Below, piece after piece: positions 1,983-18,685 of a stretch of DNA of 64,000 nt; position 1 is the first letter of the stretch, and each line of letters opens with the position of its first letter. Origin of the DNA: Methanomassiliicoccaceae archaeon (GTDB taxonomy: Archaea > Thermoplasmatota > Thermoplasmata > Methanomassiliicoccales > Methanomassiliicoccaceae); the NCBI GenBank assembly GCA_040776945.1, contig JAXGZN010000001.1, forward strand, positions 448,001 to 512,000, in the 5' to 3' direction. The translations under genes were made by a program, and so were the position numbers. The notes under the pieces were generated by a model. It saw nothing but the letters and a program-made list of their open reading frames with translations. It searched no databases and was not told the DNA's origin.

Positions 1983-2012
1983 AAAGTGCAGGGGAAGGGA
2001 TTTGAACCCCCG
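1983..2012 (-). repeat. Partial att site: 30-bp copy of the tRNA-Leu 3' end
   Basis: aaagtgcaggggaagggatttgaacccccg identical to 2658-2687 and 16315-16344, followed by degenerate similarity. Confidence 0.9.
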
Positions 2013-2091
2013 GATTGCAAAGGAGATACGATGTCAATCATGTCTCCGCTTCGAAAATGAATTAATAATTATTGAAGCGTTAACGCAACAC

Positions 2092-2547: not shown

Positions 2548-2555
2548 TTTTTTTT
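2548..2555 (+). terminator. Archaeal oligo-T terminator
   Basis: T8 run immediately after the stop codon. Confidence 0.55.
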
Positions 2556-2657
2556 CACAAATGGTCTAAAATGGGGGAGGAAAGAAGCCCTTCCCCTTTT
2601 ACTTCGAAGGCATTAGAATCAAACCGTGATCTATGATCGGCTTTGAATAATTGAAGG

Positions 2658-2714
2658 AAAGTGCAGGGGAAGGGATTTGAACCCCCGAACCACTAAGGAT
2701 AAGACCCTGAATCT
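2658..2714 (-). repeat. att site (distal copy): 57-bp duplication of the tRNA-Leu 3' part
   Basis: Exact direct repeat of 16315-16371. Confidence 0.97.
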
Positions 2715-2752
2715 ACTTTTGCTGGACAGTAGTAGATAACTGCTTTTTTACC

Positions 2753-2777
2753 TAAATACCCTTGTGCATCCTTGTGC
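2753..2777 (-). promoter_or_regulatory. Putative outward-facing TATA box plus CCTTGTGC direct repeats (possible integrase arm sites)
   Basis: Minus strand reads CACAAGGGTATTTAGG; CCTTGTGC at 2760-2767 and 2770-2777. Confidence 0.4.
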
Positions 2778-2895
2778 CCGAGATTTCGCTTCGCTCACTA
2801 TCTCATTGAGGATTTTCCAACTATTGTGAACATGCTTAGTTTGCTCGGTTAAGGCATAACTAAACAATTATCGTATCGAACGGAATATCTCACGT

Positions 2896-4295: not shown

Positions 4296-4516
4296 ATGCT
4301 CCCTATTGGGAGGCAATAATATTCATGAGCGTTTATGGTACGACTCCTTTGATAATCAAAATCCATCTAGTTCTCGGGGATTCAATGTTGTAGGTATTAC
4401 TATACCCCTATACGTCATCTGTCCACAGATGAAGATTCGGTGAGATTGTGCCTGACGTGAGAGAGGATTTGCGGGGATGAGAGCGATTACGAAGGGGAGC
4501 TGAGAATATCTTTTAA

Positions 4517-5683: not shown

Positions 5684-5820
5684 ACCTTCCCCCAATTTTG
5701 AATGTATATCAAGTTACAAATAGATTTTCTAACCACATTCGCAACTCTTCCATTTCTATCTCGAGGTCTGTGGTAGAATCAGTTACATTCCTTTTTAGAT
5801 GATAAAGCGATACAATTCCA

Positions 5821-6362
5821 ATGGTAATTATGGAGTATCCTAAGTGGATTTGTTATCCAAGATGCATCGAACATCCAGAATGGGTAGAAGACGTTGCAGC
5901 GATTTTTAGAAAGCATAAATCCACAATCTGCTCCATAAACAATCATTGTAAGAGCGATGAAGTGTTGGAAATAATCAGGCAGGATTTGGAGAGCGTTGGA
6001 TTCCTCGTTGAAGGTGGGAATGGGACTAGCACGATAAAACGCCCAGTTTTTTTGGTGAGTATGGAGAGCCAGAATTGCAGTACCAAATCGATTCCTATAA
6101 TCCGATAAAGAAGATTGGATTGGAGGTCGAGGCAGGCCGTTCGAAATTGGGCAACGCCCTCTACCGAGATATCATACAAACTGCACTCTTGGTTGGGGTC
6201 GACTACTTCGTTGTGGCGGTTCCACAGAAGTATAGATACCTCTCGAGTGGGAAGCAGTTCGAGGAGAGTATATACCTAATATGCAAATCGATCCTCGATG
6301 CCATTTACGGAACAACAAGGTTTCCACTACCGTTTAGGAATACTGTCCTGATAAGCTACTAA
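5821..6362 (+). pseudogene. PD-(D/E)xK restriction-endonuclease-like nuclease, frameshifted at the T7 run 6047-6053
   Basis: Adding one T joins the two ORFs: KRPVFFGEYGEPELQYQIDSY...IGLEVEAGR...LYRDIIQ...VDYFVVAVP. Confidence 0.7.
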
Positions 6363-6365
6363 ATT

Positions 6366-8522
6366 CTAATCTATAGTTCCAATCTCTTCCTTATTTAATT
6401 TTGAGGTGGGGATAATTACCCACTTGGTCATACCTTCCCCATTTACTTTTGGTCTCTTCTCGGTTGTCCAATTTCCTACACCAAAGATATCATTCAGGGC
6501 CCTTGGTACTAGGCTATGTGCAATGTTATCCCTTTCTTTATCGTTGATTAGATCTGGCAAATCCGCTTTCAAGTGCAATTTTATACCATACCATGTCTGA
6601 CCCTTCGCTTTTAGGTTAGTTATGTATTCTAGGTCATTTTTCAAGGATAAAATTGCTGCAGAGGAGTAAGCTTCAAGATAATCCATTCCTGGTTCAGCTT
6701 TTTCAGGTAGATCGTTCTCTTCGACTTGTATAACTTGTTCAGAGCTCGTTTCAATTTCGACCTTTATTGCTTGTGGTATCTTTTCAGCAGCTACCCCAAA
6801 CTTTTTCTTTAATTCCAGAGCATATGTTTTGCCTTCCTTTTTGTCATATTTTGAATCTATGGGCTTATACAATTCCTCAAAGGACAGGATTCTGATAGGT
6901 ATTGGATAACTCTTGCCACCAGCACTGCTCCAGAACACACCATTGCCTACGATCGGCTCATTTAACAAGGCGGAGAGTATGTCATCAGAGAAGTGAGCAT
7001 TTGCCCTCTTCAAAGATTGCAGATCATTAGCCGATAGGAGGTGGAATACAAACCAATTATCTCCTTGGCTTAGTATCTGTCCATCAATGCTACCGGGCTG
7101 CTGAGTAATTAGTATCGCACCGAGATCGTACTTGCGTCCTTCCTTGACCCAAGCAACGTAGGGTTTTGTTGCCCCATAGTTACCTAATACCGATTGTGCC
7201 TCTTCGATGACGGCAATAGTTGGAATGGTTGCTGGATTCGCCTCAGTGAATTGTTGCTGATTGAAATCGAATATCTTTTGTAAAATCATCCCCGAAAGCA
7301 CCAGAGATATCTCGCCCCTTAGCTGCGAAATATCGATGATACATAGCTTTCCGTCCTTCAATGAATTCAGAAGCATGTCTAGCATCTGACTGCTGGGATC
7401 GTGGAGCATACGCACGATTTTGGTCATATTTGCCCGTGCTGCGACCATCTCTGCTGTTTGATCCTCTTTTAGATGAAGCAACTCCAACATTGTCTCTTCA
7501 TCCGCCATGTTTTCGCTCTTATGAATTAAATCTACAAGCTTTCTCCAGTTCTCATCGTTCAGATTTTTTAACTTTGTGACGTTTTGCTGCTCTTGCTTCT
7601 CTGGAGGCAGAGCGATGGAGATTACGTCTGAAGCCTTGAGCCGTCTAATATCGAATCTAATGGAGCTGGCAACAAATGATTGGTAAAATTTGCTAGGGCT
7701 CTTTTTGCTCGAAAAAATTACAACTTTATCCTCGAGCTCCGGTACATCACAAAGGCCTGGTCGCCCCTTGTCATCAGGCCAATAGTATTCTCCATCTGGA
7801 TCGAAAATTATCGTACCGACAGGTACCTTGGTACCCCCTCTTTTCTCCACTGTTGGGGTTTCTTTGTAAAGGCTGCTGAACAGTAATTTGTTGAGGTTTG
7901 ATTTACCAAACCCTGCTCTGGCAAAAACAAAAGATCTTCTGGATACCAGGTTTTTTATCGGAAATTTTGACACGACAGCTGGATTTAGTATTCTCATCCA
8001 GTTTTCGATTTTACATCTTTTATCGTTACCAGCATAGATGAACTCCCCCAGGCCGAAAAATCCTATATCTGCCCCGTCGATGTTGTGCCCAGCCACCTCT
8101 TTGAGGAGCTCATCCGACAAAAAGGCTACTTTACTCCCAACATGGGGTAACCGTCTATGGGAAGCCGCAAAGACAACCTCCCCGTCGTTTACCCTCAGAA
8201 CGCCTAACACTCGTATCTCAACACAATATTTCAGGTATTGTTCACGCAAGTCCTCTGGTATAGATCGATCGTCAGCTACTGCCCTGATGCCGTAGTCTTC
8301 GCCAGATCCAGAAGTTAGTCTGCCTTCAGCTGATATTGACGCAATGCGACCAAGCACTCCCTCTTCCTCACTCTCTAGTTGAATTAGGACAAATTGACCA
8401 TGCATTGGAGCTGTTTGAAAGCTGTTCTTGTATGGCAGTATTATTTCGGCATGAAACTCTAAACCGCCTTGTTTAAATCCCCTGAATATCCCCACAATAT
8501 TCTCTTTTTCAAACAATTTCAT
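6366..8522 (-). CDS. HerA-like (DUF87) ATPase/helicase
   Basis: N-terminal HAS-barrel-like region, Walker A ARAGFGKS, IIFDPDGEY, Walker B VIEEAQ, KEGRKY...ITQQP. Confidence 0.9.
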   Translation of the reverse strand: MKLFEKENIVGIFRGFKQGGLEFHAEIILPYKNSFQTAPMHGQFVLIQLESEEEGVLGRIASISAEGRLTSGSGEDYGIRAVADDRSIPEDLREQYLKYCVEIRVLGVLRVNDGEVVFAASHRRLPHVGSKVAFLSDELLKEVAGHNIDGADIGFFGLGEFIYAGNDKRCKIENWMRILNPAVVSKFPIKNLVSRRSFVFARAGFGKSNLNKLLFSSLYKETPTVEKRGGTKVPVGTIIFDPDGEYYWPDDKGRPGLCDVPELEDKVVIFSSKKSPSKFYQSFVASSIRFDIRRLKASDVISIALPPEKQEQQNVTKLKNLNDENWRKLVDLIHKSENMADEETMLELLHLKEDQTAEMVAARANMTKIVRMLHDPSSQMLDMLLNSLKDGKLCIIDISQLRGEISLVLSGMILQKIFDFNQQQFTEANPATIPTIAVIEEAQSVLGNYGATKPYVAWVKEGRKYDLGAILITQQPGSIDGQILSQGDNWFVFHLLSANDLQSLKRANAHFSDDILSALLNEPIVGNGVFWSSAGGKSYPIPIRILSFEELYKPIDSKYDKKEGKTYALELKKKFGVAAEKIPQAIKVEIETSSEQVIQVEENDLPEKAEPGMDYLEAYSSAAILSLKNDLEYITNLKAKGQTWYGIKLHLKADLPDLINDKERDNIAHSLVPRALNDIFGVGNWTTEKRPKVNGEGMTKWVIIPTSKLNKEEIGTID

Positions 8523-9676
8523 TCGTATCGCCTCTGTGAAAGATCTGTGTAAAACCGAATGGAGTCGACTGCCCTCCCCTTGTTAGCTGGAAGCATTTTG
8601 ATAACCGAGTTGAAAATTTGGTCCTGAAATATTTCAAGGTCAAAATCAACTATCTGTGCATGCTCATGGGCTTTTTGTAGGCATAATGGGTAAAATGGTA
8701 CAGGGAATCCATTTATAGCGTCATTTAGCAGATACCCAAAGATTTCTTGGGCATGTTGTTTTTGTTCCGAAAATACATCGACAGCCCATACAGGATCTCC
8801 AGATCGTTTCCCAAAACGGACAAGGAACATATCCCCAGCAACAAACTTCGGAGCCTCAGTGTCCTCCCCCTCCACCTCACGGCCCTTGGCGTACTCTTCC
8901 CAAATGTAAGCTTTAGCTTCCAGATTGCGTGGAATAGGAACATACCAAGGTTCTCCACCGGGGAAGATGTCCTCTATACCCATTGCAAGGCGGTACCTGT
9001 CTATAACCTTGGAGTGCTTAGCTACCCCTACTAAAAACACTTTCCTTCTATCTTCTTTGTATATTTTTTGAATTGCATTTTCAATGTTCTTTCGTACTGT
9101 GATGAAGAGATCCTTCGAAAATAGTTTACATCTCAGCTGGCCATCCCTTACCACTAAGGTGTTCGTGGCAAATGAATCATAAACAATCCTCTCATATAAG
9201 ACGGCCCATTCGCACAGGTCCCGGTAAACCAGGACCCATCCTGGTTTTACTGAGTCGGGTTTGTTCCGTATCTTCTCCCCATAAGGAATCATGCCACTTA
9301 GCTCGTGTAATGTGTCCACCCCTAGATCCCTCATCATTTTTCCGAGGGCGGTTTTTGGGGTGCCGTCATCGCCAAATTGCCGCCTACTCAATTCATCAGT
9401 ATCTGTCGACGGCGAAACTACATCCAGACATAGATTCTTACCGTACGAATCGGTAACCCTTACTAGTTGCATAAAGAAAGGATCAAAAGCGAGTTTGTTA
9501 TTGCCACCATCACTAGCTACCAAGGAGACGGCAGTCACAGAGCGTGGCTGAATCTTCTTTACTTCAGGTTTTACCTGTCTGATTTCGGCACATATCTCAT
9601 CCAGTAGACGAATATCTGCCTTCGCTCGCTCCGTTATCATATCCCTAAGTTCAACTAAAGTGTCCGTATCCAACAT
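8519..9676 (-). CDS. NurA-like nuclease
   Basis: VASDGG, VVRDGQL, LVGVAKHS and GFPVPFYPLCLQKAHEHA motifs; ATGA overlap with the HerA gene. Confidence 0.8.
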   Translation of the reverse strand: MLDTDTLVELRDMITERAKADIRLLDEICAEIRQVKPEVKKIQPRSVTAVSLVASDGGNNKLAFDPFFMQLVRVTDSYGKNLCLDVVSPSTDTDELSRRQFGDDGTPKTALGKMMRDLGVDTLHELSGMIPYGEKIRNKPDSVKPGWVLVYRDLCEWAVLYERIVYDSFATNTLVVRDGQLRCKLFSKDLFITVRKNIENAIQKIYKEDRRKVFLVGVAKHSKVIDRYRLAMGIEDIFPGGEPWYVPIPRNLEAKAYIWEEYAKGREVEGEDTEAPKFVAGDMFLVRFGKRSGDPVWAVDVFSEQKQHAQEIFGYLLNDAINGFPVPFYPLCLQKAHEHAQIVDFDLEIFQDQIFNSVIKMLPANKGRAVDSIRFYTDLSQRRYE

Positions 9677-9680
9677 TGAA

Positions 9681-10748
9681 TCACTTCAGCACCGCAAAGC
9701 AATCAAGCTCCTGGTTGGCCTTGCCAATCGATGTTCCAAAATGCTCTGCTTGCCTGTTTCCTCGGCCTGGCATTCCTGCCGATATAATTGCCTGTATATC
9801 CCAATCCGCCTCTAGGGTGCTTTCCAATATTTCCCTTGCAGTTCCTTTAAAGGATGGGAGTACGCCCAATCGGATGACTAGCTTCGCTCTCTTAGTGCAA
9901 ACATCGGCAACATTTTTCCATACTTTTTTAAGATCGTCTTCGAAATCATTGAGTGAGATGTGCGAAATCTGGTTGGGTTTTGTATAGTCGACTTTCCAAG
10001 GTCCACCAACAAACCAGTTCCTCAGCCATTGGTCTTGTTTGTAAGTGACCATCCCCAGGTAAGGTGGTGATGTTATTACCCAACTAAATTTGACACCAGC
10101 CTCAACTTGGAAAGTTTTTCTTGAGTCTTGGTCGATAATGAATCCATTTGTTCTATCTGGTAATGTTTTGAAAACAAATTCAGCTCTTCTCTTCACAACT
10201 TCTTTTACATCAATTTTTGGTGGTTCTAGGCCTTTTTTATGCCAATAATTAACCGAATATTTGGGCTTGGTTGAGAATGTCCTTGGCATTTGATTAGATA
10301 GGTAGGAAATGGTGTTGACATTTCTGGGCCCATGTAAAATGCCCAACATAATCGCTCTCAGAGCAATCTCAGCATCCGTTTCACAGCTGTTCAATAAATA
10401 TTCACGAATTTTACATATCTGTTTGAGCGTTGAACTAGAATAACAGTGCTCCCAGAATTCACCCTCTGGAATATCAAAACTCAGTTTTGAACCAAGGATA
10501 TGTCCACATAAACGAGTAACCTCATTGGCTGTTGTTGATACTAATTTTGCCTTTGAAATAGCACAGGCAACTTGATTTGAATCGATACCGACAGAGTTAC
10601 AACTTTTAATCCTTGCTGCAAAAAGTGTTGTGCCTCTACCGCAAAATGGGTCCAGTACCCATTCATTCCTATTTGCGGTTGATAGGATTTCATAAGGGAA
10701 GGTCAAAGGGTACATGGTAAAATATGGACAAATAGAGTTCAATCTCAA
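9681..10748 (-). CDS. Amino (N4-C/N6-A) DNA methyltransferase
   Basis: Motif I VLDPFCGRGTT precedes motif IV ITSPPY; start codon uncertain (TTG; frame open further upstream). Confidence 0.88.
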   Translation of the reverse strand: MRLNSICPYFTMYPLTFPYEILSTANRNEWVLDPFCGRGTTLFAARIKSCNSVGIDSNQVACAISKAKLVSTTANEVTRLCGHILGSKLSFDIPEGEFWEHCYSSSTLKQICKIREYLLNSCETDAEIALRAIMLGILHGPRNVNTISYLSNQMPRTFSTKPKYSVNYWHKKGLEPPKIDVKEVVKRRAEFVFKTLPDRTNGFIIDQDSRKTFQVEAGVKFSWVITSPPYLGMVTYKQDQWLRNWFVGGPWKVDYTKPNQISHISLNDFEDDLKKVWKNVADVCTKRAKLVIRLGVLPSFKGTAREILESTLEADWDIQAIISAGMPGRGNRQAEHFGTSIGKANQELDCFAVLK

Positions 10749-11138
10749 AATTGGATTTGTTTTGTTAAGCGTGTTTGAGGTTTGGAATTGAGCTATTTGT
10801 GGATATTCAGCAATCGTACTTTTACTCCCCGTGGTTAAGTCTCTTGTGGATATAATATCTTTAGGTTTCTTTGATTAAAATCGAACTATTACACGATGGA
10901 GGAAAAACATGGTAAACAGGGGTCTTATGTCTCATTAAAAATTGATAAAAAGGCATCTGGCTCATACGAATACATACACACATATGTGGAGGCCATACAA
11001 CCTATCAGTCCGTTCACACATTTTTTTATTAATAAGAGAGAAGGACATGGTGGGGAATCAGACGTAGTGGTATTAAGTCGATAGCCCACCAAAGAGTCAA
11101 GGATCAGTTATATTTCAACTGACATCAATCCATCCAAT

Positions 11139-11669
11139 ATGAATCCGTTATTCCCATCATATGAACTATCTTGGAGAACTGAAGAGGATGATGCTTTTCG
11201 ACAGAGTAGTGCTTGGAAAAAGATACGTCTTAGGATACTAAATCGAGATGATTATACATGTGCTTATTGTGGTTATCGAGCCGAGAAGTATCAACAGGTA
11301 AATCATATTGATGGAAATCCAAAAAACAATGATGATTCAAATCTAGAAGTGATCTGTCCCGAATGTCACAAGGTCATGCACTCTGGACTTTGGTGTAAAG
11401 TCAAGAAAACAATGATATTATTCGAGTCATCGAACTATTCGCAGACCGAGATAATCAGAATAACGAGAGAGATGCGTTCTCAGGGCAAGAAGGATGATGA
11501 GATTATCGACTACTTGGGGCTAAAGAACCGAATGCCTTGGATGCAGGACCTCGCCTATCTCAAGCCTCTTTTTGCGTTTATTACATCAGCTCCTGAAATA
11601 GATTCCCCGAAACGTTATTTGTCAGAAGAGAAGCAGAAATATAATGCGATAAATAGAGACAAGTGGTAA
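11139..11669 (+). CDS. HNH endonuclease
   Basis: WKKIRLRILNRDDYTCAYCG...VNHIDGNPKNNDDSNLEVICPECHKVMH. Confidence 0.88.
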   Translation: MNPLFPSYELSWRTEEDDAFRQSSAWKKIRLRILNRDDYTCAYCGYRAEKYQQVNHIDGNPKNNDDSNLEVICPECHKVMHSGLWCKVKKTMILFESSNYSQTEIIRITREMRSQGKKDDEIIDYLGLKNRMPWMQDLAYLKPLFAFITSAPEIDSPKRYLSEEKQKYNAINRDKW

Positions 11670-11980
11670 TCTAGGCTATCTGAGATTATGTGAAGCCTCA
11701 GACCCGGCTCCCTCTATGACCCTTGGAGTCGTGAAGTATGCATTAGCTATTTAGCGTGTCTAACGATCTCTGATGATGGTTGGTTAAGCTTTCTCTAAAC
11801 CATCCGTATGATGGATGATTATCTTCAAATCACCCCATCCGTTGTGGCCCTGAGTCCGCAACCACCCTTTTTTAGAAGGGGGAAGTGGCAAAGTGGGGCC
11901 CCATACCACGAGGGTAGGGGGTGGGGGGCGTTCCTATTTTCAGGAAATTTAAAGTGAAACATCATTAGAAAGCCTATTGA

Positions 11981-12311
11981 GAGATTTTAACCATTTTAAC
12001 CATCTGACTCTCTTTCATTCTTAAAGATGTGGTCAGTAATAATAAATAATAGTAATAATAAAAATAATTCAGTGTCCACTAATCTCGCCGGTTATTTTTG
12101 GCCTTTACCGGCAGTAATACTATATGTACATTAGATAGCCGGAATCCTCCAGACATGTCCAGATGGGCCTGTCCATCCGGCTTGTTTTTTATTCAGGGGA
12201 TTTGTCGACGTGCTATTCTCCCTTCCTTGGGCCCTTTTTCTTCCTCCTCGTATCATATCAGGTACTTATCGGACAGTCAGGATTTGTCATGGATAAAATG
12301 GTTAAAATCTC
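11981..12311. repeat. 18-bp perfect inverted repeat bounding an AT-rich, hairpin-rich non-coding unit (origin-like)
   Basis: GAGATTTTAACCATTTTA (11981-11998) and TAAAATGGTTAAAATCTC (12294-12311). Confidence 0.8.
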
Positions 12312-12360
12312 GCATAGATAAATTAGATGACTAACTAGAACATGACGGTATGTTCTTGAC

Positions 12361-12861
12361 TCAGGCATCTTTAGTCAAGTGCGTCCCATCACTCCTGAAA
12401 CAGGATAACACCCTCCTGTTGCCGTGAGACCTTACAGGCTTACCCTCCGGCTCAACCACCCATTGGTAGCCTAGCTCCCCAACCCAAGTGTAGAACTCCT
12501 TGTTGCCGATTGGAGGGAGGAGCTTGTCTTTGGCGATGTTGTCGAATTCTTCCCTGATGTCGCTGTCGTAAATCTTGCAAGGGTGCTTCCTCTGTACAAG
12601 ATCCTTGACCGCTTGATCGATAAGAGGCTTGACGTTATTACCTGCCCCGCCTGGCGTGATGTTGGTCCTCTTGATAGTGCCATTGACATATCTGACCGTC
12701 TTAACCGCTAGCTCGTGAGCCATCTCCGGGGAGATGTGGAAGTTAAGCTCTTTCTCCAGGTAGTCGACTATGATCATGTTGGCGAAGGGCGGAAGCTGAT
12801 CCATGACACGTTTCTTGATCTCAGGGTTCGTGTCGTATCTATCAGCCTCACACTTCAGCAA
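12361..12861 (-). CDS. Hypothetical protein; C-terminus resembles the primase/D5 C-terminal wHTH
   Basis: IYDSDIREEFDNIAKDKLLPPIGNKEFYTWVGELGY pattern; part of a 3-gene run. Confidence 0.55.
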   Translation of the reverse strand: MLKCEADRYDTNPEIKKRVMDQLPPFANMIIVDYLEKELNFHISPEMAHELAVKTVRYVNGTIKRTNITPGGAGNNVKPLIDQAVKDLVQRKHPCKIYDSDIREEFDNIAKDKLLPPIGNKEFYTWVGELGYQWVVEPEGKPVRSHGNRRVLSCFRSDGTHLTKDA

Positions 12862-12864
12862 TGG

Positions 12865-13206
12865 TCATAACCTATCCCATTGTTCCTGGGAGATAAATCC
12901 ATTCATTCTTGCCTCCTTTATTTCCGCTACGCTCCAAATGGCAAAGAACCCAGCCTCCCTATTTGCCCTCCTTACCTTATTGTACTCCCTGCCAAGGTAT
13001 TCCAACTCTCTTTCGTACATGCGAAAGCAAAACAGCCACGAAATATCAGATTCATCTATGTCCTCTGGATGGAACCTTGCTCCTTTGATTGCCAAAGGCA
13101 TGTGGCCATCTGGTGCATTAATGCAAGAGAGGGTGGCTACAAGGGTCTCACGACGCTTCAGGGCCTCATTGTTGCAACTCTCGAAGCCCTCCAAATCCTC
13201 ATGCAT
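12865..13206 (-). CDS. Hypothetical protein
   Basis: 113-aa ORF coupled to the upstream ORF (TAATG overlap at 13206). Confidence 0.55.
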   Translation of the reverse strand: MHEDLEGFESCNNEALKRRETLVATLSCINAPDGHMPLAIKGARFHPEDIDESDISWLFCFRMYERELEYLGREYNKVRRANREAGFFAIWSVAEIKEARMNGFISQEQWDRL

Positions 13207-13460
13207 TAATTCGCCTTCTTCTTAGGGCATAGGGCGTAATACCTTCCATTTTCCTTGGATAGAATCTCTAATTCTTCATGTGCTTGATTGATCAGTCTAG
13301 CATACTGCTTTTCATCGACCTTCATTTTCTCCATGAATTTATCTTTCAGCACATCTTGAATGACATATCCAGGCGTATTGCCCTTTGACAATTCTTCAAT
13401 GTTCTCCCTAAAGAAGGCAAGAAGATCGTGCATGTCCACCTTCTTCTTGTTAACCGTCAC
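13206..13460 (-). CDS. Small winged-helix-like protein (possible regulator or excisionase)
   Basis: Helix-helix-helix then ILSKENGRYY wing-like end; position downstream of the integrase. Confidence 0.5.
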   Translation of the reverse strand: MTVNKKKVDMHDLLAFFRENIEELSKGNTPGYVIQDVLKDKFMEKMKVDEKQYARLINQAHEELEILSKENGRYYALCPKKKAN

Positions 13461-13510
13461 GCCGTTTATCTCAGCCGCATTAATTCCTACGCGTCCAATT
13501 ATGCTACTTT

Positions 13511-15177
13511 CCTGACCTCCCGGGTTTTAGGCACATGGTCGGTCGAGGTCGAGCTCCAACGCCTCGATGATCTTGCGCTGTCTCTTCGTCACCTCGCCGG
13601 TGACGAAGCTGCCGTCCGGCAGCTCCATCCTTCGGACCTTCGATAGCTCCAGCATGATGGACGGGAGCGAGTGGTCACGGCATAGGCCGCTCGAACGCAT
13701 CAGCGCCAGCAGCCTGGACCGGACGATCAGCGCCACGAAGTTCACGAAGATCGTTCCCTTGACCACATCGACCTTCTGCGCTCTGAGCGGCAGGGAGGCC
13801 AGATCGTTCTTCAACGAATAGAACATCTTCTCGATGATGTCGCGTTCCCGGGACCACGACAGGCACTCCTGCCAGCTGTGCCGGCCGGAGTGCAGGATGA
13901 TCATCTTCCCGGCCCGGTTCAGCCGGGCCGATACCGCTTTCTTCTTGACGTCAACGATGAACCTGCGGCCGTCCAGCTTCCAGCCGAAGTACTGTGCCAG
14001 CGCTCCCGCCTCCTCCTCGAACACCCTGGCGGGGCTCTGCCAGGGGCGAACGTCCCTCGACTCCAGCCTGGTCTTGACGCGGTCGAGCCACTCGTAGAAG
14101 GAGGTCTTCTCCTCCTGCTCCCGCCTGAGGTCGTAATAGAGGTAGCCGTCCACGTCCAGCTCGCCGAGCCGGAGCGTCACCTCCTTGACGAAGAAGGTCT
14201 CGTTCTCCAGCTTGCGCAGGTAGGCCGCGTCCTCGATCTCCGCATGGCTCTTGGAGACGATGCTCTTCGCTTCGTCCAGCCGCATCGGCGCAGGCATGAT
14301 GAAATCGTATCCGGCGGAGAGGATGTCGGCTAGGTTCGACTGAGAGTAAAAACCGCGGTCCATGATGAGGACCGGAGCGTCCAGTCCGAGGGAACGAAGC
14401 AGCGCGACGGTGTTCCTGATGGTGCTGACGTCGGCGATGGAGCCTGGATAGGTCTGGAAGCCCAGCGGTATTCCGAGCGTTTTGTGGGCGATGATCGACA
14501 GATTCATCTGCGGAAGTCCGTCACCGTCACGGTTGTGGCCGTACTCCAGTGTCTCCAGCAGCTTCGATGAGGAGGAGAACGAGGTGATGTCGTACAGCAG
14601 CGGCCCCTGGCGTCCGACATTGTCCAGGAGCAGTTCGGTGAACTGCTCCGGTATCGAGCTGCCTCCCAGCGCCGCGAAGAAGTCGCTCAGTGTCTGCGAG
14701 GACAGCGGAAGATCGCCCCACTCTCTCGAGAGGAACGTTCTTTCATACCATGTCTTCACGTTGCTGACCGAGCAGGGGTCGACCACGCGGTTCACCGCCA
14801 AGGCCAGGGCGGTCCTGGCCTTGTCCTCCGGCAGCAGCCGGTCCAGCATTGAATCGAGATCCAGGTCCCGGACGATCTTGAGCGCCGGCAGCAGATCGCC
14901 GTAATCGAAGGCATTGCGCGGCAGCGCCTTCCGAACCCGCTTCGCCTCCCCGTCGATCAGCTTGCCCAGGTACTTCGACCGCTGCCTGGTCTTCTTCGTG
15001 GCGGCATCGTAGTACGGCGTGATCTCGTACACGTAATCGATGCCGTTGATGTTCTTGACGCGGGTGAAGGGCCTCATATACTATGCCTATATAGGCATAG
15101 TACTATTAAAGCACTGTGAAGCATGCTGGCCGTGAGGCGATCAACGGAAGTTAGTGCCTAAAAGTCGGGAGGTCAGG
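13511..15177 (-). mobile_element. IS1634-family insertion sequence
   Basis: 24-bp TIRs cctgacctcccgggttttaggcac (13511-13534; 15154-15177 with 2 mismatches); 6-bp TSD TACTTT at 13505-13510 and 15178-15183. Confidence 0.95.
13527..15077 (-). CDS. IS1634-family DDE transposase
   Basis: LLYDITS, YGHNRDG, LIMDRGFYS, RDIIEKMFYSLK motifs. Confidence 0.92.
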   Translation of the reverse strand: MRPFTRVKNINGIDYVYEITPYYDAATKKTRQRSKYLGKLIDGEAKRVRKALPRNAFDYGDLLPALKIVRDLDLDSMLDRLLPEDKARTALALAVNRVVDPCSVSNVKTWYERTFLSREWGDLPLSSQTLSDFFAALGGSSIPEQFTELLLDNVGRQGPLLYDITSFSSSSKLLETLEYGHNRDGDGLPQMNLSIIAHKTLGIPLGFQTYPGSIADVSTIRNTVALLRSLGLDAPVLIMDRGFYSQSNLADILSAGYDFIMPAPMRLDEAKSIVSKSHAEIEDAAYLRKLENETFFVKEVTLRLGELDVDGYLYYDLRREQEEKTSFYEWLDRVKTRLESRDVRPWQSPARVFEEEAGALAQYFGWKLDGRRFIVDVKKKAVSARLNRAGKMIILHSGRHSWQECLSWSRERDIIEKMFYSLKNDLASLPLRAQKVDVVKGTIFVNFVALIVRSRLLALMRSSGLCRDHSLPSIMLELSKVRRMELPDGSFVTGEVTKRQRKIIEALELDLDRPCA

Positions 15178-15307
15178 TACTTTCTGTCAAAATTTAGCTC
15201 CTAGCTTTAATTTTAAAGCTATATACAATACATGTCTATGTAAGTATATAAAAATTGTCCTGAATAATAAAATGTGGAAAAATGGGGCTTATTGAGCCTG
15301 ACTAGAG

Positions 15308-16192
15308 CTACAGCCGAGGAACCCCTTTATTGTATGCTTCCCTCATCGCCCTGTCGTTGATGTGCAGGTAAATCGTGGTAGTGCTGATGTCCGAGTGTCC
15401 AAGCATATGAGAAAGATGGAACAGGTCACACCCGTTGCCTAGCATGGCCGTGGCGAAGCTGTGCCTTAAAACGTGAGGGGTTACCTTTTCCTTGAGATTC
15501 GCACGTACTGCACACCGCCTGATGGTGTCCTGAATGGCGTAGGCAGACCACCGGTTACCCTTGGCCGAGAGGAACAACGGATCGGTGGGCTTCGGCCGGT
15601 CATGGTACTTAGGGATGTAAGTGGCGATCAGCTTGCACACATCTTCCGATAGCGGGATTTCCCTTTCCTTGTCCCTCTTCGCATGTCGCACCGTTAAACG
15701 CCTGAGAACGAGGTCTACGTCGCCTATATTGAGCATTCTTAGCTCGTTGAGCCTGAGCCCCGTTGTGCAGAAGATCTTCAACAGGGCGTATTCCCTGAAG
15801 TCCCTAGAGGCTTTGCAGAGCTGTTTCATCTGTGCCTCAGTTAGGTACCTAGGGTTACGTTTCTTCGCTCGGGGCTTGCGGAACTTGACCTTCATCCCCC
15901 TCCACTCGCAGTAGTACTCAAGTCCCATGAGCAGGTGTCTCTGGTGCGACTTGGAGTAGCTAGACGACCACACCCTCACTGCAATGTCGTCGATATCCTT
16001 CCTGGTGGGGAAGGGGTTGTTGTTGTCCCTGAGAAGCTTGTTAACGAAGCCATCAATCATCCTAGCCCACGTTCGACCCATCCCTTTGTGCGTCAAAAGC
16101 CACGCAAGGAATGTCATCTCGGTCTCTGGCTCGCACTGCTCTTTTAGAATATCTTGTGCCGTGATTCGGCTTAGTTCGTCGTTTTCCCTCAT
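15308..16192 (-). CDS. Tyrosine recombinase/integrase (XerC/D-like)
   Basis: TGLRLNEL, HAKRDKER, HVLRHSFAT, LGHSDISTTTIY catalytic motifs. Confidence 0.95.
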   Translation of the reverse strand: MRENDELSRITAQDILKEQCEPETEMTFLAWLLTHKGMGRTWARMIDGFVNKLLRDNNNPFPTRKDIDDIAVRVWSSSYSKSHQRHLLMGLEYYCEWRGMKVKFRKPRAKKRNPRYLTEAQMKQLCKASRDFREYALLKIFCTTGLRLNELRMLNIGDVDLVLRRLTVRHAKRDKEREIPLSEDVCKLIATYIPKYHDRPKPTDPLFLSAKGNRWSAYAIQDTIRRCAVRANLKEKVTPHVLRHSFATAMLGNGCDLFHLSHMLGHSDISTTTIYLHINDRAMREAYNKGVPRL

Positions 16193-16314
16193 GCTGGCTC
16201 ACCTTCCGTCCAGCACGAACTGGCTAGCCAAGCTTGGCCACAGAGAGCCCGAAGGGATCTCGTGACCGAAGGGAAATCGGCGTAAGAGCTTAGTCAACCA
16301 GAATAGTAGAATCA
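16193..16314 (-). promoter_or_regulatory. Structured integrase 5' leader (candidate RNA switch)
   Basis: 15-bp helix with G-U pairs, CUUCGG loops, start-codon hairpin, and segments complementary to the tRNA 5' half and to the distal element end. Confidence 0.6.
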
Positions 16315-16318
16315 AAAG

Positions 16319-16402
16319 TGCAGGGGAAGGGATTTGAACCCCCGAACCACTAAGGATAAGACCCTGAATCTTACGCCGTTGGCCAAGCTTGGCTACCCCT
16401 GC
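16319..16402 (-). tRNA. tRNA-Leu(CAG)
   Basis: Cloverleaf GCAGGGG/CCCCTGC, anticodon arm TAAGA-TTCAGGG-TCTTA, long variable arm, GGTTCAAATCC; CCA not encoded. Confidence 0.97.
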
Positions 16403-16430
16403 TTGTAGGTCCACCTTATACTGGCACAAA

Positions 16431-16444
16431 ATATAAACCTTATC
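16431..16444 (-). promoter_or_regulatory. BRE/TATA promoter of tRNA-Leu
   Basis: Minus strand GATAAGGTTTATAT about 30 nt upstream of the tRNA. Confidence 0.6.
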
Positions 16445-16540
16445 CTCCACTGGCAGATGGGACATCCATCGAACGACGTGGGGTCGCCGTAAAAATTAAT
16501 ATAATTAAATGCAGCGAAAGCATCAGCATACCTCAGGATA

Positions 16541-18685
16541 ATGGGCATGACCGATCGCAACGTTCCCGATAGGGACGTTAAAGGAGGGATGATGGGACCG
16601 GATGGCGTCCCGTCCCTCGATGACCCCCGGCTGTTCATCAACCGGGAGCTGAGCTGGTTGGACTTCAACCGCAGGGTACTGGAGGAGGCCGAAGACCCCG
16701 CCCAGCCGCTGCTGGAGCGGGTGAAGTTCCTGGCCATATGCGGAGGGAACATCGATGAGTTCTTCATGTCCCGCGTTCCTGGCCTGCTGAGGCAGGCGGC
16801 GAAGGGAGCGCTGGAGACACCTCCTGACGGCATGGGCCCAGCCGAACAGCTGAACGCCATCAGGTGCCGGCTCGATGTCCTCCTGGAGGAGCATGCGCGG
16901 GTCTGGAGGGACCAGCTCCTTCCCGGGCTCGCCGCCCGGGGGATCTTCGTCCACCGGATGCAGGAGCTTGATGTGGCACAGATAGGTTCGCTGCGCAGGT
17001 TCTTCGAGCGAGAGGTGTTCCCGATACTCACGCCTCTGGCCTTTGATCTTGGCCACCCTTTCCCGTTCATTTCCAGCGGAGCGATCAACATCGCGGCGGT
17101 CGTATGCGACGCCTCCGGCCATGAGATGTTCGCCCGGGTCAAGGTGCCGTCGGGAGATTTGTTCCCCCGACTGATACGTATCGACCAGGAGAACGGGGGG
17201 GACGGCGAGGCCCACTTCGTTCTGCTTGAGGACCTGGTCGCAGCGAATCTCGATCTAATGTTCACAGGAATGAACATAGTCTCCGCGCATCCCTTTCGCG
17301 TCACCCGTGACGCGGAGTTCGAGATCGAACTGGACGAGACCCATGATCTGCTGACGGCGATGGAGGAGGGGCTGGAGTCCAGGAGGGTGGGGGACCTTTC
17401 CCGTCTGGAGGTCTCCGCGGACATGCCCCGCCGCCTCGTAGAGATGTTGGCCGCCAAGATGGAGTTGGGGCCCCAGCTGATCTACAGCTCCTCGGTCCCT
17501 CTGGCTCTGGTCGATCTCTGGCAGCTCCACGGCCTGCGCCGCCCGGAACTGTCCGATGAGCCGTTCCTTCCATGCCTGCCCAGGGCGCTTTCGAACGAGA
17601 TGACCGTCCTGCGGAGCATTGCCGAGCGTGATGTCCTGCTGTACCACCCTTACGACAGCTTTCAACCGCTAATCACCTTCCTGGGGCAGGCCGCGGCCGA
17701 CCCCAAGGTCATGGCCATCAAGATCACGTTCTACCGCATCGACGAACGGTCGCCGCTCGTGGACGCGCTCATGGAAGCGCGCCGCAACGGAAAGGCCATC
17801 GCCGCGGTGGTGGAGCTCAAGGCCAAGTTCGACGAGACCAACAACATCAACTGGGCCAAGCAACTGGAGCATGCCGGCGTGCATGTCGTCTACGGCCCGG
17901 TGGACATCAAGATACATGCCAAGATGTGCCTCATCGTGCGCAAGAGCAGGGACGGGCCCATCAGACTATGTCATCTCTCCTCCGGGAACTATAATGCGAA
18001 GACGGCCCGCACCTATGGGGATATCGGCTACTTCACCTCCGATCCCGACATCGCGGCCGATGTCTCCGACCTGTTCAACTCCCTGACCGGATATTGCAGG
18101 AAGGAGGCTTTCCGCAAGCTTCTGGTGTCCCCGGCAGGCATACGAAGGGGGATCGTGGAGAGGATCGACCGGGAGATCGAGCGGCATAGGACGCACGGCG
18201 ACGGCCGCATCGCTTTCAAGCTGAACGCGCTCATAGACAAGGGCATCATCAAAGCGCTGTACCGAGCGTCCATGGCCGGGGTGAAGGTCGACCTGAACGT
18301 GAGAGGCCTATGCAGTTTGAGGCCTGGGGTGCCAGGAGTGAGTGAGAACGTCCGGGTGACGTCGATCGTCTCGAGGTTCCTGGAGCACTGCAGGATCTAT
18401 TACTTCCGGAACGGCGGGAAAGAGGAGGTGTTCTTGGGCTCATCGGACATGATGCCGCGTAACCTGGACCGCAGGGTCGAGGTGCTGTTCCCGGTGAGGG
18501 ACCACCGCATCCGCAAGGCGGTGGTGGAAGACATCCTGGAGGTGCACCTGCGCGATAACGTGAAGGCGCGAGAGCTCATGGCCGACGGGTCCTGGAAGAG
18601 GGTGGTCCGCAAGGAGGGCGAAGAGGAGATGGACTCTCAGAGGTGGCTGTTGGCCCACCGGGGGATTTGGCATGGCGAGAGGTGA
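16541..18685 (+). CDS. ppk1: Polyphosphate kinase 1
   Basis: FINRELSWLDFNRRVL, VELKARF-like VELKAKFDE, KIHAKMCL, SRFLEH, SSDMMPRNLDRRVE. Confidence 0.96.
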   Translation: MGMTDRNVPDRDVKGGMMGPDGVPSLDDPRLFINRELSWLDFNRRVLEEAEDPAQPLLERVKFLAICGGNIDEFFMSRVPGLLRQAAKGALETPPDGMGPAEQLNAIRCRLDVLLEEHARVWRDQLLPGLAARGIFVHRMQELDVAQIGSLRRFFEREVFPILTPLAFDLGHPFPFISSGAINIAAVVCDASGHEMFARVKVPSGDLFPRLIRIDQENGGDGEAHFVLLEDLVAANLDLMFTGMNIVSAHPFRVTRDAEFEIELDETHDLLTAMEEGLESRRVGDLSRLEVSADMPRRLVEMLAAKMELGPQLIYSSSVPLALVDLWQLHGLRRPELSDEPFLPCLPRALSNEMTVLRSIAERDVLLYHPYDSFQPLITFLGQAAADPKVMAIKITFYRIDERSPLVDALMEARRNGKAIAAVVELKAKFDETNNINWAKQLEHAGVHVVYGPVDIKIHAKMCLIVRKSRDGPIRLCHLSSGNYNAKTARTYGDIGYFTSDPDIAADVSDLFNSLTGYCRKEAFRKLLVSPAGIRRGIVERIDREIERHRTHGDGRIAFKLNALIDKGIIKALYRASMAGVKVDLNVRGLCSLRPGVPGVSENVRVTSIVSRFLEHCRIYYFRNGGKEEVFLGSSDMMPRNLDRRVEVLFPVRDHRIRKAVVEDILEVHLRDNVKARELMADGSWKRVVRKEGEEEMDSQRWLLAHRGIWHGER

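What the first reader, a model, noticed from the sequence alone, without database searches (positions are those of the whole stretch)
16225..16395. Integrase leader is antisense to the 5' half of its target tRNA: candidate RNA switch sensing the integrated state
Seen: the leader between tRNA-Leu and the integrase ATG holds two exact inverted copies of tRNA sequence lying almost entirely outside the att duplication. TAGCCAAGCTTGGCCA (16225-16240) matches 16380-16395 and CGGCGTAAGA (16278-16287) matches 16369-16378. Together they complement 26 of 27 contiguous tRNA nucleotides (nt 8-34: D arm and 5' anticodon stem) in correctly nested order, and the 37-nt spacer folds out as hairpins. Inference: when integrated, the tRNA promoter reads through into int and the leader can invade the tRNA 5' half, coupling int expression to integration state or pre-tRNA processing. 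Alternatives are trans-sensing of the mature host tRNA (T-box-like host check) or guide-like recognition of attB. I know of no described system like this for tRNA-targeting tyrosine integrases. Caveat: 12 of the 16 nt are a palindrome.
Basis: partly seen in the sequence, partly recalled or inferred. Interest (0 to 1): 0.92.

Follow-up and report, generated by a model that had tools for sequence, protein, structure and literature searches.

The report
Inverted tRNA half-copy in integrase leader
The stretch between a leucine tRNA gene and a mobile element's integrase gene really does carry a back-to-front copy of the tRNA's first half, but related elements lack it, so it looks more like part of the element's docking site or a recombination leftover than a proven RNA switch.

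Summary
The 125-nt interval between tRNA-Leu(CAG) (16318-16402, minus) and a 294-aa Xer-type integrase (15308-16192, minus) holds exact inverted copies of tRNA nt 8-23 and 25-34. They extend to nt 5-34 (28 of 30), are nested, and are split by a 37-nt spacer. This is far beyond chance.

The interval is the integrase-proximal arm of the attachment site of a 13.7-kb integrated element (57-nt att repeat 2658-2714 / 16315-16371). The copy stops exactly at the anticodon stem/loop junction, the presumed crossover edge.

The RNA-switch reading is not carried by the comparative test. None of the 9 other lineages of this integrase family, 7 of them next to an intact Leu or Ser tRNA gene, has a comparable antisense leader. 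Their tRNA-derived segments are mostly direct, decayed att remnants. The one tRNA-Ser lineage has no complement to its own 5' half.

In favour of the RNA reading:
- RNA folding strongly favours leader/tRNA pairing (z = -5).
- Contigs from two RNA libraries bridge the tRNA/leader junction.

My ranking:
- DNA-level arm site (core-like integrase-binding or autoregulatory site): 0.35.
- Neutral rearrangement scar: 0.3.
- Cis RNA sensor: 0.2.

Interest is moderate.

The parts
16318..16402 (-). tRNA-Leu(CAG), the integration target. Its 3' part (nt 32-85) is supplied by the element.
   Evidence: ARAGORN; Rfam RF00005, 45 bits
16315..16371 (.). att identity block, attL copy (tRNA nt 32-85 plus 3 nt downstream)
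   Evidence: 57-nt direct repeat, 100% identical to 2658-2714
2658..2714 (.). att identity block, attR copy. It marks the far end of the 13.7-kb element.
   Evidence: The low-GC block (0.37-0.49, with a 0.61-0.62 IS insert) runs from about 2500 to 16500, against about 0.6 outside.
16193..16317 (-). 125-nt tRNA-to-int interval. It is the int-proximal (P') arm of attL/attP and the int 5' leader.
16278..16287 (+). Inverted exact copy of tRNA nt 25-34 (D-stem 3' side, nt 26, anticodon-stem 5' strand). It ends at the stem/loop junction.
16222..16240 (+). Inverted copy of tRNA nt 5-23 (18 of 19; exact for nt 8-23). It contains the 12-nt D-arm palindrome.
16241..16277 (.). 37-nt spacer with two direct 8-nt repeats (CCGAAGGG on the + strand at 16249-16256 and 16266-16273; CCCTTCGG in the int sense). 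It is predicted to fold as small hairpins.
   Evidence: read; fold
16287..16301 (-). Leader segment (+17 to +31) that can pair with leader +84 to +98 when the tRNA 5' half is absent: 14 of 15 pairs, 3 of them G-U.
   Evidence: folds; count
16199..16207 (-). Shine-Dalgarno-like GGAAGGTGA, 6 nt before the int ATG. It sits in the loop of a local hairpin whose stem holds the AUG.
   Evidence: sequence; fold. The SD consensus is recalled, not tested.
15308..16192 (-). Tyrosine integrase, 294 aa, two-domain Xer type
   Evidence: PF00589 E = 8.9e-41; XerA structures 5hxy E = 2.7e-39 and 4a8e covering residues 23-289
13511..15177 (-). IS insertion inside the element (DDE transposase 13527-15077, 24-nt terminal inverted repeats, host-like GC)
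   Evidence: (I4)
1983..2012 (.). Older att remnant (tRNA nt 59-85 plus 3 nt), 675 nt beyond attR

Best explanation
The 125-bp interval is the integrase-proximal (P') arm of the attachment site of a 13.7-kb integrative element. It is attL now and would be part of attP after excision. It also serves as the 5' leader of int.

Its two inverted blocks are a lineage-specific, interrupted, inverted copy of the host-side (B) arm of the target: the B core half-site (tRNA nt 25-34, ending exactly where the anticodon-loop crossover region begins) and the neighbouring D arm.

I read them as DNA-level sites. They would be extra core-like binding sites for this Xer-type integrase, which has no separate arm-binding domain, or for an accessory protein. 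They probably arose from an aberrant recombination product. Integrase bound there would bridge or loop attL. Because the sites lie between the tRNA gene and the int start codon, occupancy would also damp int expression (negative autoregulation).

What is shown:
- the anatomy;
- the att limits;
- the type of integrase;
- the absence of the feature in relatives.

What is inferred:
- the position of the crossover;
- protein binding;
- autoregulation.

The strong RNA complementarity would then be a by-product.
For: 1. Position. The blocks lie in the att arm next to int, outside the 57-nt identity block.

2. The copy ends at tRNA nt 34, the last base of the anticodon-stem 5' strand. The identity block starts at nt 32 and runs to the tRNA 3' end. 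This is the pattern of anticodon-loop crossover sites. [quoted passage not shown] It also says acceptor-stem nucleotides raise efficiency for Int-pT26-2, so contacts beyond a short core are known.

3. Two other lineages have tRNA-derived copies that end at the same nt 34: L025 nt 23-34 and L011/12/13 nt 26-34. In L011 versus L013, a 34-nt leader block holding these copies is the longest perfectly conserved run in 406 aligned columns at 78% identity.

4. The integrase is a two-domain Xer type. Any arm sites would therefore have to resemble core sites.

5. The family's leaders carry a conserved short DNA motif in either orientation. CTGGC/GCCAG is in 10 of 10 leaders, where the 95th percentile of the shuffle maximum is 8. 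CTGG or CCAG lies within 6 nt of the ATG in 9 of 10. This suggests protein-binding architecture across the whole interval.

6. The spacer holds two direct 8-nt repeats 17 nt apart start to start.

7. Known precedent. In same-orientation tRNA-integrase pairs, attL overlaps the int promoter, and Int and the RDF repress int (KplE1 intS, PMC2951348; abstract and passages read).
Against: - No binding was or could be tested here.
- The D-arm block (nt 5-23) lies well outside a normal 11- to 13-bp half-site.
- The other arm of the site (250 nt before the attR copy) has no tRNA-derived 10-mer in the window's element or in L142 (0 hits each).
- The feature is absent from the closest relatives L004, L005 and L006 (54%, 52% and 48% protein identity), so it is not needed by the family.
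- The copies ending at nt 34 in L025 and L011-13 can also be read as decayed att remnants.
- Single self-derived 9-mers near tRNAs are common background: 7 of the other 35 tRNAs of this genome have one. The short matches in relatives therefore carry little weight.
- Perfect 26-nt complementarity, a G-U-tolerant alternative helix and RNA-library contigs across the junction fit an RNA role at least as naturally.
Confidence: 0.35

Rival explanations
1. Neutral rearrangement scar. The inverted partial tRNA copy is debris of past integrase-mediated or replication-associated rearrangement at a heavily used integration hotspot. It has no function. Its perfect identity reflects a recent origin.
For: Decayed tRNA or att fragments are common beside these integrases:
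- L025: nt 23-34 fused to the last tRNA base and the downstream flank. It lies 70 nt behind an intact tRNA, in an array with three more att copies.
- L009: a direct copy of nt 62-83, 18 of 22.
- L010: int sits behind a degenerate Leu(TAA) att copy inside an array.
- L013: an int-only remnant.

An inverted fragment also exists in a genome of the same genus. In L141, upstream of tRNA-Leu(TAG), there is a decayed tRNA 3' end followed 9 nt later by an inverted copy of nt 23-43 (19 of 19 matched bases, with a 2-nt insertion).

The copy ends at the presumed cleavage position, as a half-finished recombination joint would. The feature is a one-off in the family.
Against: - A decaying scar should show scattered mismatches. 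Here there are two near-perfect islands (18 of 19 and 10 of 10) separated by 37 unrelated nt that replace a single tRNA base, so at least two events are needed.
- An inverted copy needs an inversion or a template switch, not simple tandem integration.
- The att repeats are still 57 of 57 identical, so recency cannot be excluded either way.
Confidence: 0.3
2. Cis-acting RNA sensor. In the integrated state the tRNA promoter reads through TTTT into the leader. The leader pairs with nt 5-34 of the nascent pre-tRNA. This changes processing, stability or translation of the int mRNA. After excision the partner is missing and the leader refolds.
For: - 28 of 30 complementarity, nested.
- Predicted gain of -12.4 kcal/mol over separate folding, z = -5.0; whole-transcript z = -3.9.
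- Without the tRNA 5' half, the distal block pairs with leader +17 to +31. That is 14 of 15 pairs, of which 3 are G-U and would be A-C on the other strand. The result is a two-state architecture.
- The spacer repeats read CCCUUCGG in RNA, which are hairpin-prone.
- int has an SD-like sequence. I see no obvious TATA-like box in the leader; this is my reading, with consensus motifs recalled.
- Contigs of RNA libraries X1 and X2 (two studies) bridge the tRNA/leader junction with more than 70 nt on each side.
- The 10-mer matches the isoacceptor-specific stem (TAAGA of CAG). The inverted fragment in L141 matches TAGGA of TAG.
Against: - Not conserved: 0 of 9 other lineages have a non-palindromic complement of 10 nt or more to the target's 5' half.
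- Among the other 9 leaders folded, only L009 shows a strong predicted gain with pairs to the 5' half (-8.0 kcal/mol, z = -7.7). It comes from a direct copy of the tRNA 3' end plus the palindrome. L025 has 19 such pairs but z = -1.1. L004 gains -7.2 (z = -2.3) with no pairs to the 5' half. The other 6 gain 0 to -1.7 kcal/mol.
- The tRNA-Ser lineage L007 has no complement to its own 5' half.
- Covariation is otherwise untestable, because Leu CAG, TAG and GAG share nt 1-29.
- The SD/AUG hairpin is the same in all folds, so no output is evident.
- The complement includes nt 32-34, which are also present after excision, and it stops at the crossover edge. An RNA model does not predict that.
- Contigs cannot show strand, transcript ends or RNA origin.
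- No Rfam family matches.
Confidence: 0.2
3. Trans sensing of mature host tRNA (T-box-like), or guide-like recognition of attB by a leader RNA.
For: Only the complementarity itself.
Against: - No T-box or other Rfam match at E <= 1 in 15000-16600.
- The complement avoids the anticodon and the 3' end, which T-boxes read.
- It targets the D arm and anticodon stem, which are buried in a folded, modified tRNA. This last point is recalled knowledge.
- Tyrosine recombinases of this type are not known to use guide RNAs. The review PMC8371274 mentions none in the sections I read (17 and 26); a term search of its full text found 0 occurrences of 'antisense'.
Confidence: 0.03

Closest known systems
KplE1 intS / argW-type 'same-orientation tRNA-integrase' modules, with attL overlapping the int promoter (Panis et al. 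2010, PMC2951348; abstract and passages read)
   Same: The tRNA gene is followed on the same strand by int. The interval between them is the att arm. Recombination-protein binding sites sit in the int promoter/leader, which gives negative autoregulation.
   Different: KplE1 is bacterial and heterobivalent: its Int has distinct arm-type sites plus an RDF. Here the integrase is a two-domain Xer type, and the candidate sites are copies of the target tRNA's own 5' half, inverted. No binding or promoter was mapped here.
Archaeal tRNA-targeting integrases (SSV1, pTN3, pT26-2) as reviewed in PMC8371274 (sections 17 and 26 read)
   Same: The identity block runs to the tRNA 3' end. The crossover is inferred at the anticodon loop. 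Nucleotides outside the identity block matter for recombination.
   Different: Those are SSV-type ('suicidal') integrases whose att lies inside int. Here int is intact and adjacent to att. No inverted copy of the tRNA 5' half in an arm is described in the sections I read.
Accessory core-like recombinase sites in simple tyrosine-recombinase systems: the third symmetry element of FRT, and the DR1/DR2 direct repeats of integron attI (recalled, not from any call)
   Same: Extra copies of the core half-site lie beside the crossover site and are bound by the same recombinase domain.
   Different: Those copies abut the core. Here the copies lie about 90-150 bp from the presumed crossover, are inverted, and include a D-arm segment.
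Integration-state-dependent int promoters such as Pcirc/Pint of ICEclc (recalled; only a search listing of PMC2892462 was seen)
   Same: Expression of int depends on whether the element is integrated or circular, because the upstream sequence changes.
   Different: That mechanism is promoter swapping at the DNA level, not RNA pairing with the target tRNA.
T-box riboswitches
   Same: A leader RNA base-pairs with a tRNA.
   Different: T-boxes read the anticodon and the NCCA end in trans and have a conserved fold. None of this is present here: there is no Rfam hit and the complement ends before the anticodon loop.

Membership tests
Tyrosine recombinase (Phage_integrase, PF00589) | Catalytic-domain profile match above the curated threshold | tested here: met
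   PF00589 E = 8.9e-41, 140 bits against a cut-off of 27.1, residues 116-280
Tyrosine recombinase (Phage_integrase, PF00589) | Conserved R..K..H-x-x-R..H..Y catalytic residues | tested here: met
   R147, K172, H240, R243, H266 and Y275 are invariant in the 11-sequence family alignment A1. Their assignment to catalytic roles is by recalled consensus.
Xer-type two-domain recombinase (no arm-binding domain) | Full-length similarity to XerA/XerD-type structures with no extra N-terminal domain | tested here: met
   4a8e (XerC-like/XerA) aligns to residues 23-289 of 294; 5hxy XerA E = 2.7e-39. The protein is not the housekeeping XerA: it lies in a low-GC element beside att.
tRNA-integrating element with anticodon-loop (class I) crossover | Identity block starting at the anticodon loop/stem and running to the tRNA 3' end, duplicated at the far end of the element | tested here: met
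   The 57-nt repeat covers tRNA nt 32-85 plus 3 nt. The classes of Williams 2002 are as cited in the review's Fig. 11 legend.
tRNA-integrating element with anticodon-loop (class I) crossover | Strand-exchange positions flanking the 7-nt loop | not testable with these tools
   Needs in vitro cleavage mapping.
Autoregulated same-orientation tRNA-int module (Panis et al. 2010) | tRNA and int on the same strand, with the att arm between them | tested here: met
   The interval is 125 nt, shorter than the 208-228 nt mean the paper gives for predicted autoregulated pairs.
Autoregulated same-orientation tRNA-int module (Panis et al. 2010) | int promoter overlapped by Int/RDF binding sites; repression by Int | not testable with these tools
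   No archaeal promoter tool and no binding assay were available.
Conserved cis-regulatory RNA (riboswitch- or attenuator-like leader) | Structure or complementarity conserved, with covariation, across homologous leaders | tested here: not met
   0 of 9 other lineages have a non-palindromic complement of 10 nt or more to the target's 5' half. Among the other 9 leaders folded, the only strong gain with pairs to the 5' half is L009, where it stems from a direct remnant.
T-box riboswitch | Rfam T-box fold; specifier-anticodon and T-box-NCCA pairing | tested here: not met
   cmscan at E <= 1 finds only the tRNA. The complement covers nt 5-34 only.
Split-tRNA / bulge-helix-bulge processing helix | Two 3-nt bulges separated by a 4-bp helix at the junction | tested here: inconclusive
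   By eye, the junction in the fold has a 1-nt bulge opposite a 37-nt insert, which is not a canonical BHB. No dedicated search was run.

The most novel reading that the evidence does not exclude
The leader is a cis-acting 'am I integrated?' sensor. Only when the element sits in tRNA-Leu(CAG) does the tRNA promoter produce a pre-tRNA-int co-transcript. In that transcript the leader invades the D arm and the anticodon-stem 5' strand. This blocks tRNA-type processing and sets the fate of the int mRNA. After excision the leader refolds on its own internal mimic (leader +17 to +31). It would be a lineage-specific invention rather than a family trait.
Probability: 0.18. Interest if true: 0.8.

Novelty: new variant of a known kind. 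Interest (0 to 1): 0.42.

Why it matters
If the blocks are integrase-binding sites, they would show how a simple Xer-type archaeal integrase without an arm-binding domain could build a higher-order attL/attP. It would do so by re-using copies of its target's own sequence. That bears on directionality and autoregulation, which the review of archaeal tyrosine recombinases calls largely unexplored (section 26).

If the RNA reading is right, it would be a new way for a mobile element to read its integration state from the host tRNA transcript.

If it is a scar, it documents that these integrases leave inverted as well as direct tRNA debris at Leu-tRNA hotspots. That is relevant to tRNA gene disruption and rearrangement in archaea.

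Tried and rejected
Searches for more relatives that gave nothing usable:
- The search for related loci on genome contigs with alignment A1 picked a generic catalytic-motif pattern and returned 80 bacterial Xer-like loci (L030-L109). I did not use them.
- The metagenome scan gave 2 weak loci at 31% and 24% identity. Not used.
- Three viral-contig scans found no relative.
- The class-level genome search (401 genomes, 193 with a match at E <= 1e-25) found, apart from G000 and G034, only about one Xer-like gene per genome. I read these as housekeeping XerA and did not use them for leaders.
- Protein searches of the phage and plasmid collections gave no match at 60% identity or more; the rows listed were 26-37% identical.

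RNA libraries:
- In none of the 4 runs does a contig cover 16397-16548.
- X3 and X4 have no contig on the leader itself.
- X4's only contig touching the tRNA belongs to the older att remnant near 1983-2012.

Ideas considered and dropped:
- I first took L009 as a second antisense case (inverted nt 1-10 and nt 12-22; energy gain z = -7.7). I rejected this. The '1-10' block is better read as a direct copy of the tRNA 3' end (18 of 22), and the D-arm block is palindromic.
- I first read the inverted 8- to 9-mers to nt 20-30 in L004/L021 and L011-13 as a recurrent element. They occur in 3 of 9 lineages, and 0 of 5000 shuffles reached 3. I downgraded this for three reasons. The window was chosen after seeing the data. 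Other tRNA windows are enriched in both orientations. Single 9-mers are common near tRNAs in the real genome.
- A 16-nt D-arm match and a 17-nt spacer match about 130 nt apart at G000:C1:351486-351634 lie inside a cysteine-rich gene that looks like an iron-sulfur oxidoreductase (my reading of the translation; no family search run). I take them as chance.
- T-box, guide RNA and BHB/split-tRNA readings are covered under the rivals and the membership test.

Tools and literature:
- Literature searches for a described leader-tRNA antisense arrangement found nothing. One search gave 0 papers for 'integrase' + 'attL' + 'complementary to the tRNA'. Searches gave only the general papers cited.
- Supplements were not consulted.
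Full report
ANATOMY

On the minus strand the window carries, in order:
- A tRNA-Leu(CAG) gene (16402 to 16318; Rfam 45 bits).
- A 125-nt interval (16317 to 16193).
- A 294-aa tyrosine integrase (16192 to 15308; PF00589 E = 8.9e-41).

A 57-nt direct repeat, 100% identical, links 16315-16371 with 2658-2714. It covers tRNA nt 32-85 plus 3 nt. Most of the DNA between the copies has GC 0.37-0.49, against about 0.6 outside. So this is a 13.7-kb integrated element with attL in the tRNA and attR at 2658-2714.

The element's cargo:
- an ApeA-type gene in two ORFs;
- a HerA-like ATPase;
- a DNA methylase;
- an HNH protein;
- an inserted IS at 13511-15177.

A further att remnant lies at 1983-2012. The host is an archaeon: it has a tRNA-Pyl gene, and the best solved-structure relatives of the integrase are archaeal XerA. 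I did not try to name it further.

THE OBSERVATION

- The 16-mer at 16225-16240 is the reverse complement of 16380-16395. 0 of 100 shuffles gave as many matches.
- The 10-mer at 16278-16287 is the reverse complement of 16369-16378. These are its only two exact copies in 64 kb.
- The first pair extends to 18 of 19.
- In tRNA numbering the blocks complement nt 5-23 and 25-34. They are nested and are separated by 37 nt where the tRNA has one base.
- The D-arm block contains a 12-nt palindrome, so it also reads as a direct copy at 14 of 15. The 10-mer is unambiguous.
- Among 36 tRNAs of this genome, 8 have some exact self-derived match of at least 9 nt within 200 nt. The other 7 have one 9- to 11-mer; only this one has 16 + 10.

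WHERE THE COPY ENDS

ARAGORN puts the anticodon at nt 37-39, so the loop is nt 35-41 and the 5' strand of the anticodon stem is nt 30-34. The inverted copy ends at nt 34. The att identity block begins at nt 32 and runs through the tRNA 3' end.

This is the layout of anticodon-loop integration sites. The review of archaeal tyrosine recombinases (PMC8371274, section 17) makes three relevant points:
- SSV1 integrase cuts at the borders of the anticodon loop.
- Acceptor-stem nucleotides raise efficiency.

The 10-mer is therefore an inverted copy of what should be the host-side (B) core half-site. The 19-mer is the stretch next to it.

THE INTEGRASE

The integrase has only a catalytic domain hit in Pfam (residues 116-280). 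It aligns over residues 23-289 with the two-domain XerA-type structure 4a8e. There is no room for a lambda-type arm-binding domain.

COMPARATIVE TEST

A search of 261 genomes of the same order found matches at E <= 1e-20 in 18 of them, G000 included (27 matches).
- Of the 26 other loci fetched, 13 hold a tRNA gene upstream of int on the same strand: 9 Leu-TAG, 2 Leu-GAG, 1 Leu-CAG and 1 Ser-GGA. L014 and L026 are the same place.
- L005 and L010 sit behind degenerate att copies.
- I grouped these into 9 lineages besides the window: L004+L021, L005, L006, L007, L008, L009, L010, L011+L012+L013, L014+L017+L026 and, counted separately, L025.
- Protein identity to the window's integrase is 54, 52, 48, 40, 41, 35, 34, 35, 34 and 28% for L004, L005, L006, L007, L008, L009, L010, L011, L013 and L025.

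Exact matches of at least 8 nt between each tRNA and its leader:

| Locus | Matches |
|---|---|
| Window | inverted 16, inverted 10, direct 8 (nt 70-77; 12-nt palindrome also direct) |
| L004/L021 | inverted 9 (nt 20-28), inverted 8 (nt 52-59) |
| L007 | inverted 9 (nt 38-46, inside the att side) |
| L009 | inverted 11 (D-arm palindrome), inverted 10 (nt 1-10) |
| L011-13 | inverted 8 (nt 23-30), direct 9 (nt 26-34); also direct 10 (nt 26-35) inside the ORF |
| L014/L026 | inverted 8 (nt 74-81) |
| L025 | direct 12 (nt 23-34), plus a D-arm-like palindrome |
| L006, L008, L017 | none |

A closer look removes most of the apparent support.
- L025 lies in an array with three more att copies. One of them has an identity block covering nt 23-85. 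The 12-mer in the L025 leader is fused to the last tRNA base and the downstream flank, so it is a deleted att remnant.
- The L009 '1-10' block is better read as a direct copy of tRNA nt 62-83, at 18 of 22. This is again a decayed att remnant.
- The L011-13 direct copy equals tRNA nt 26-44 without the 7-nt loop. It sits in a 34-nt block that is perfectly conserved between L011 and L013, at 78% overall identity.
- The tRNA-Ser lineage L007 is the only one whose 5' half differs in sequence. It has no match to its own nt 15-36.
- Leu CAG, TAG and GAG share nt 1-29, so covariation has almost no power here.

One further case is worth noting. In L141, a genome of the same genus, a decayed tRNA 3' end lies upstream of tRNA-Leu(TAG). 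It is followed 9 nt later by an inverted copy of nt 23-43, with 19 of 19 matched bases, a 2-nt insertion and the TAG-specific stem. This is the same 'tRNA 3' end, then inverted anticodon-arm copy' order as in the window, but with no int behind it.

RNA-LEVEL EVIDENCE

In favour of an RNA role:
- The transcript 16402 to 16185 folds into the long-range helix: -92.9 kcal/mol, z = -3.9, and 0 of 200 shuffles fold as well.
- The gain over folding the tRNA and the leader separately is -12.4 kcal/mol (z = -5.0).
- Without the tRNA 5' half, the distal block pairs with leader +17 to +31. That is 14 of 15 pairs, 3 of them G-U, which is a possible second state.
- Contigs of two RNA libraries from different studies cover 16186-16396 and 16185-16393. 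They therefore bridge the tRNA 3' end. Other contigs cover parts of int and the neighbouring polyphosphate kinase gene.

Limits of that evidence:
- Gains for the other 9 leaders are: L009 -8.0 (explained above), L004 -7.2 (pairs with the 3' part only), L025 -6.0 (z = -1.1), and 0 to -1.7 for the remaining 6.
- The SD/AUG hairpin is unchanged in all three folds, so I see no output.
- Rfam finds nothing but the tRNA.
- Contigs show neither strand nor transcript ends, and DNA may be present in such libraries. The contig result is compatible with read-through and nothing more.

DNA-LEVEL EVIDENCE

- All 10 leaders contain CTGGC/GCCAG, where the 95th percentile of the shuffle maximum is 8 of 10.
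- 9 of 10 have CTGG or CCAG within 6 nt before the ATG.
- The same motif follows att copies in the arrays.
- The far arm has no tRNA-derived 10-mer: 0 hits in the window's element and 0 in L142.
- The spacer carries two direct 8-nt repeats.
- In bacteria, same-orientation tRNA-int pairs have attL overlapping the int promoter, and Int and the RDF repress int (PMC2951348, abstract and passages).

WEIGHING

Three things are firm:
- The feature is real and non-random.
- It belongs to the att arm.
- It is specific to this lineage.

Arguments bearing on each reading:
- The end of the copy at the presumed cleavage position favours a DNA-level or recombination origin over a purely RNA logic.
- The islands of perfect identity around an unrelated 37-nt insert argue against a simple decaying scar.
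- The lack of conservation argues against an established regulatory RNA.

My ranking:
- Core-like protein-binding sites in the P' arm, with looping or autoregulation: 0.35.
- Neutral rearrangement scar: 0.30.
- Cis RNA sensor: 0.20.
- Trans tRNA or guide readings: 0.03.
- Unassigned: the remainder.

I found no published description of an int leader antisense to its target tRNA. That search covers open-access full text only.

Noticed in passing
window 2896-3831 and 3891-4295 (+): An ApeA-type defence gene appears split into two ORFs: the ApeA N-terminal domain (PF18862, E = 4.5e-41) and HEPN_Apea (PF18739, E = 5.7e-25). Both map to successive parts of one PADLOC PDC-S58 profile (positions 4-282 and 324-446 of 461). 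It could be a frameshift, a split gene or a natural two-gene form.
   Followed up: partly
window 13511-15177: An IS with a 516-aa DDE transposase and 24-nt terminal inverted repeats (92% complementary) is inserted in the element just beyond the 3' end of int. Its GC (0.61-0.62) is host-like. An RNA-library contig (X3) joins the IS end at 15180 to a different flank, so the IS also sits elsewhere in related populations.
   Followed up: partly
window 1983-2714: A second, shorter att remnant (tRNA nt 59-85) lies 675 nt beyond attR. The segment between holds an ORF (2092-2547, +) with zf_CopZ and BFD-like [2Fe-2S] domains. A 746-nt RNA-library contig (X4) carries this remnant with its own flanks.
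   Followed up: partly
leaders of the window, L004, L006, L007, L008, L009, L011, L013, L014, L025: A short motif is conserved across the family. CTGGC/GCCAG is in 10 of 10 tRNA-to-int intervals, usually 1-25 nt after the tRNA. CTGG or CCAG lies within 6 nt before the int ATG in 9 of 10. The same ACTGGC(T/C) follows att copies in arrays (L144, L149). It is a candidate family-wide protein-binding site.
   Followed up: partly
G018:C24 (L004 and L021/L145): Two complete tRNA-Leu(TAG) genes, each followed by an integrase of this family, face away from each other about 9 kb apart on one contig. Their leaders are about 90% identical, and the L021 integrase copy carries stop codons. This is an inverted duplication of the whole tRNA+int module.
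   Followed up: no
L141 (G036:C1), 48-98 nt upstream of tRNA-Leu(TAG): A decayed direct copy of a tRNA 3' end is followed 9 nt later by an inverted copy of tRNA nt 23-43 (19 of 19 matched bases, with a 2-nt insertion). This lies on the host side of an int-only remnant element.
   Followed up: partly
L144 (G039:C21) and L149 (G039:C3): Arrays of 3-5 att copies or remnants of tRNA-Leu(CAG) and tRNA-Leu(TAA) spread over 6-13 kb. They indicate repeated tandem integration and decay at these tRNAs. Identity blocks differ between elements (they start at nt 19-23 or at nt 32-33).
   Followed up: partly
G000:C1:351486-351500 and 351618-351634 (outside the window): A 16-nt exact match to the tRNA-Leu D arm and a 16-of-17 match to the leader spacer lie about 130 nt apart inside a cysteine-rich gene that looks like an iron-sulfur oxidoreductase (my reading of the translation, not tested against a family library). 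I take this as coincidence.
   Followed up: partly
G000 genome: ARAGORN without intron mode finds 37 tRNAs and misses at least some intron-containing ones. A 23-nt match to tRNA-Lys nt 1-23 lies in a tRNA-like stretch that neither run called, and a tRNA-Met with a 14-nt intron is found only in intron mode. A tRNA-Pyl(CTA) gene is present.
   Followed up: no
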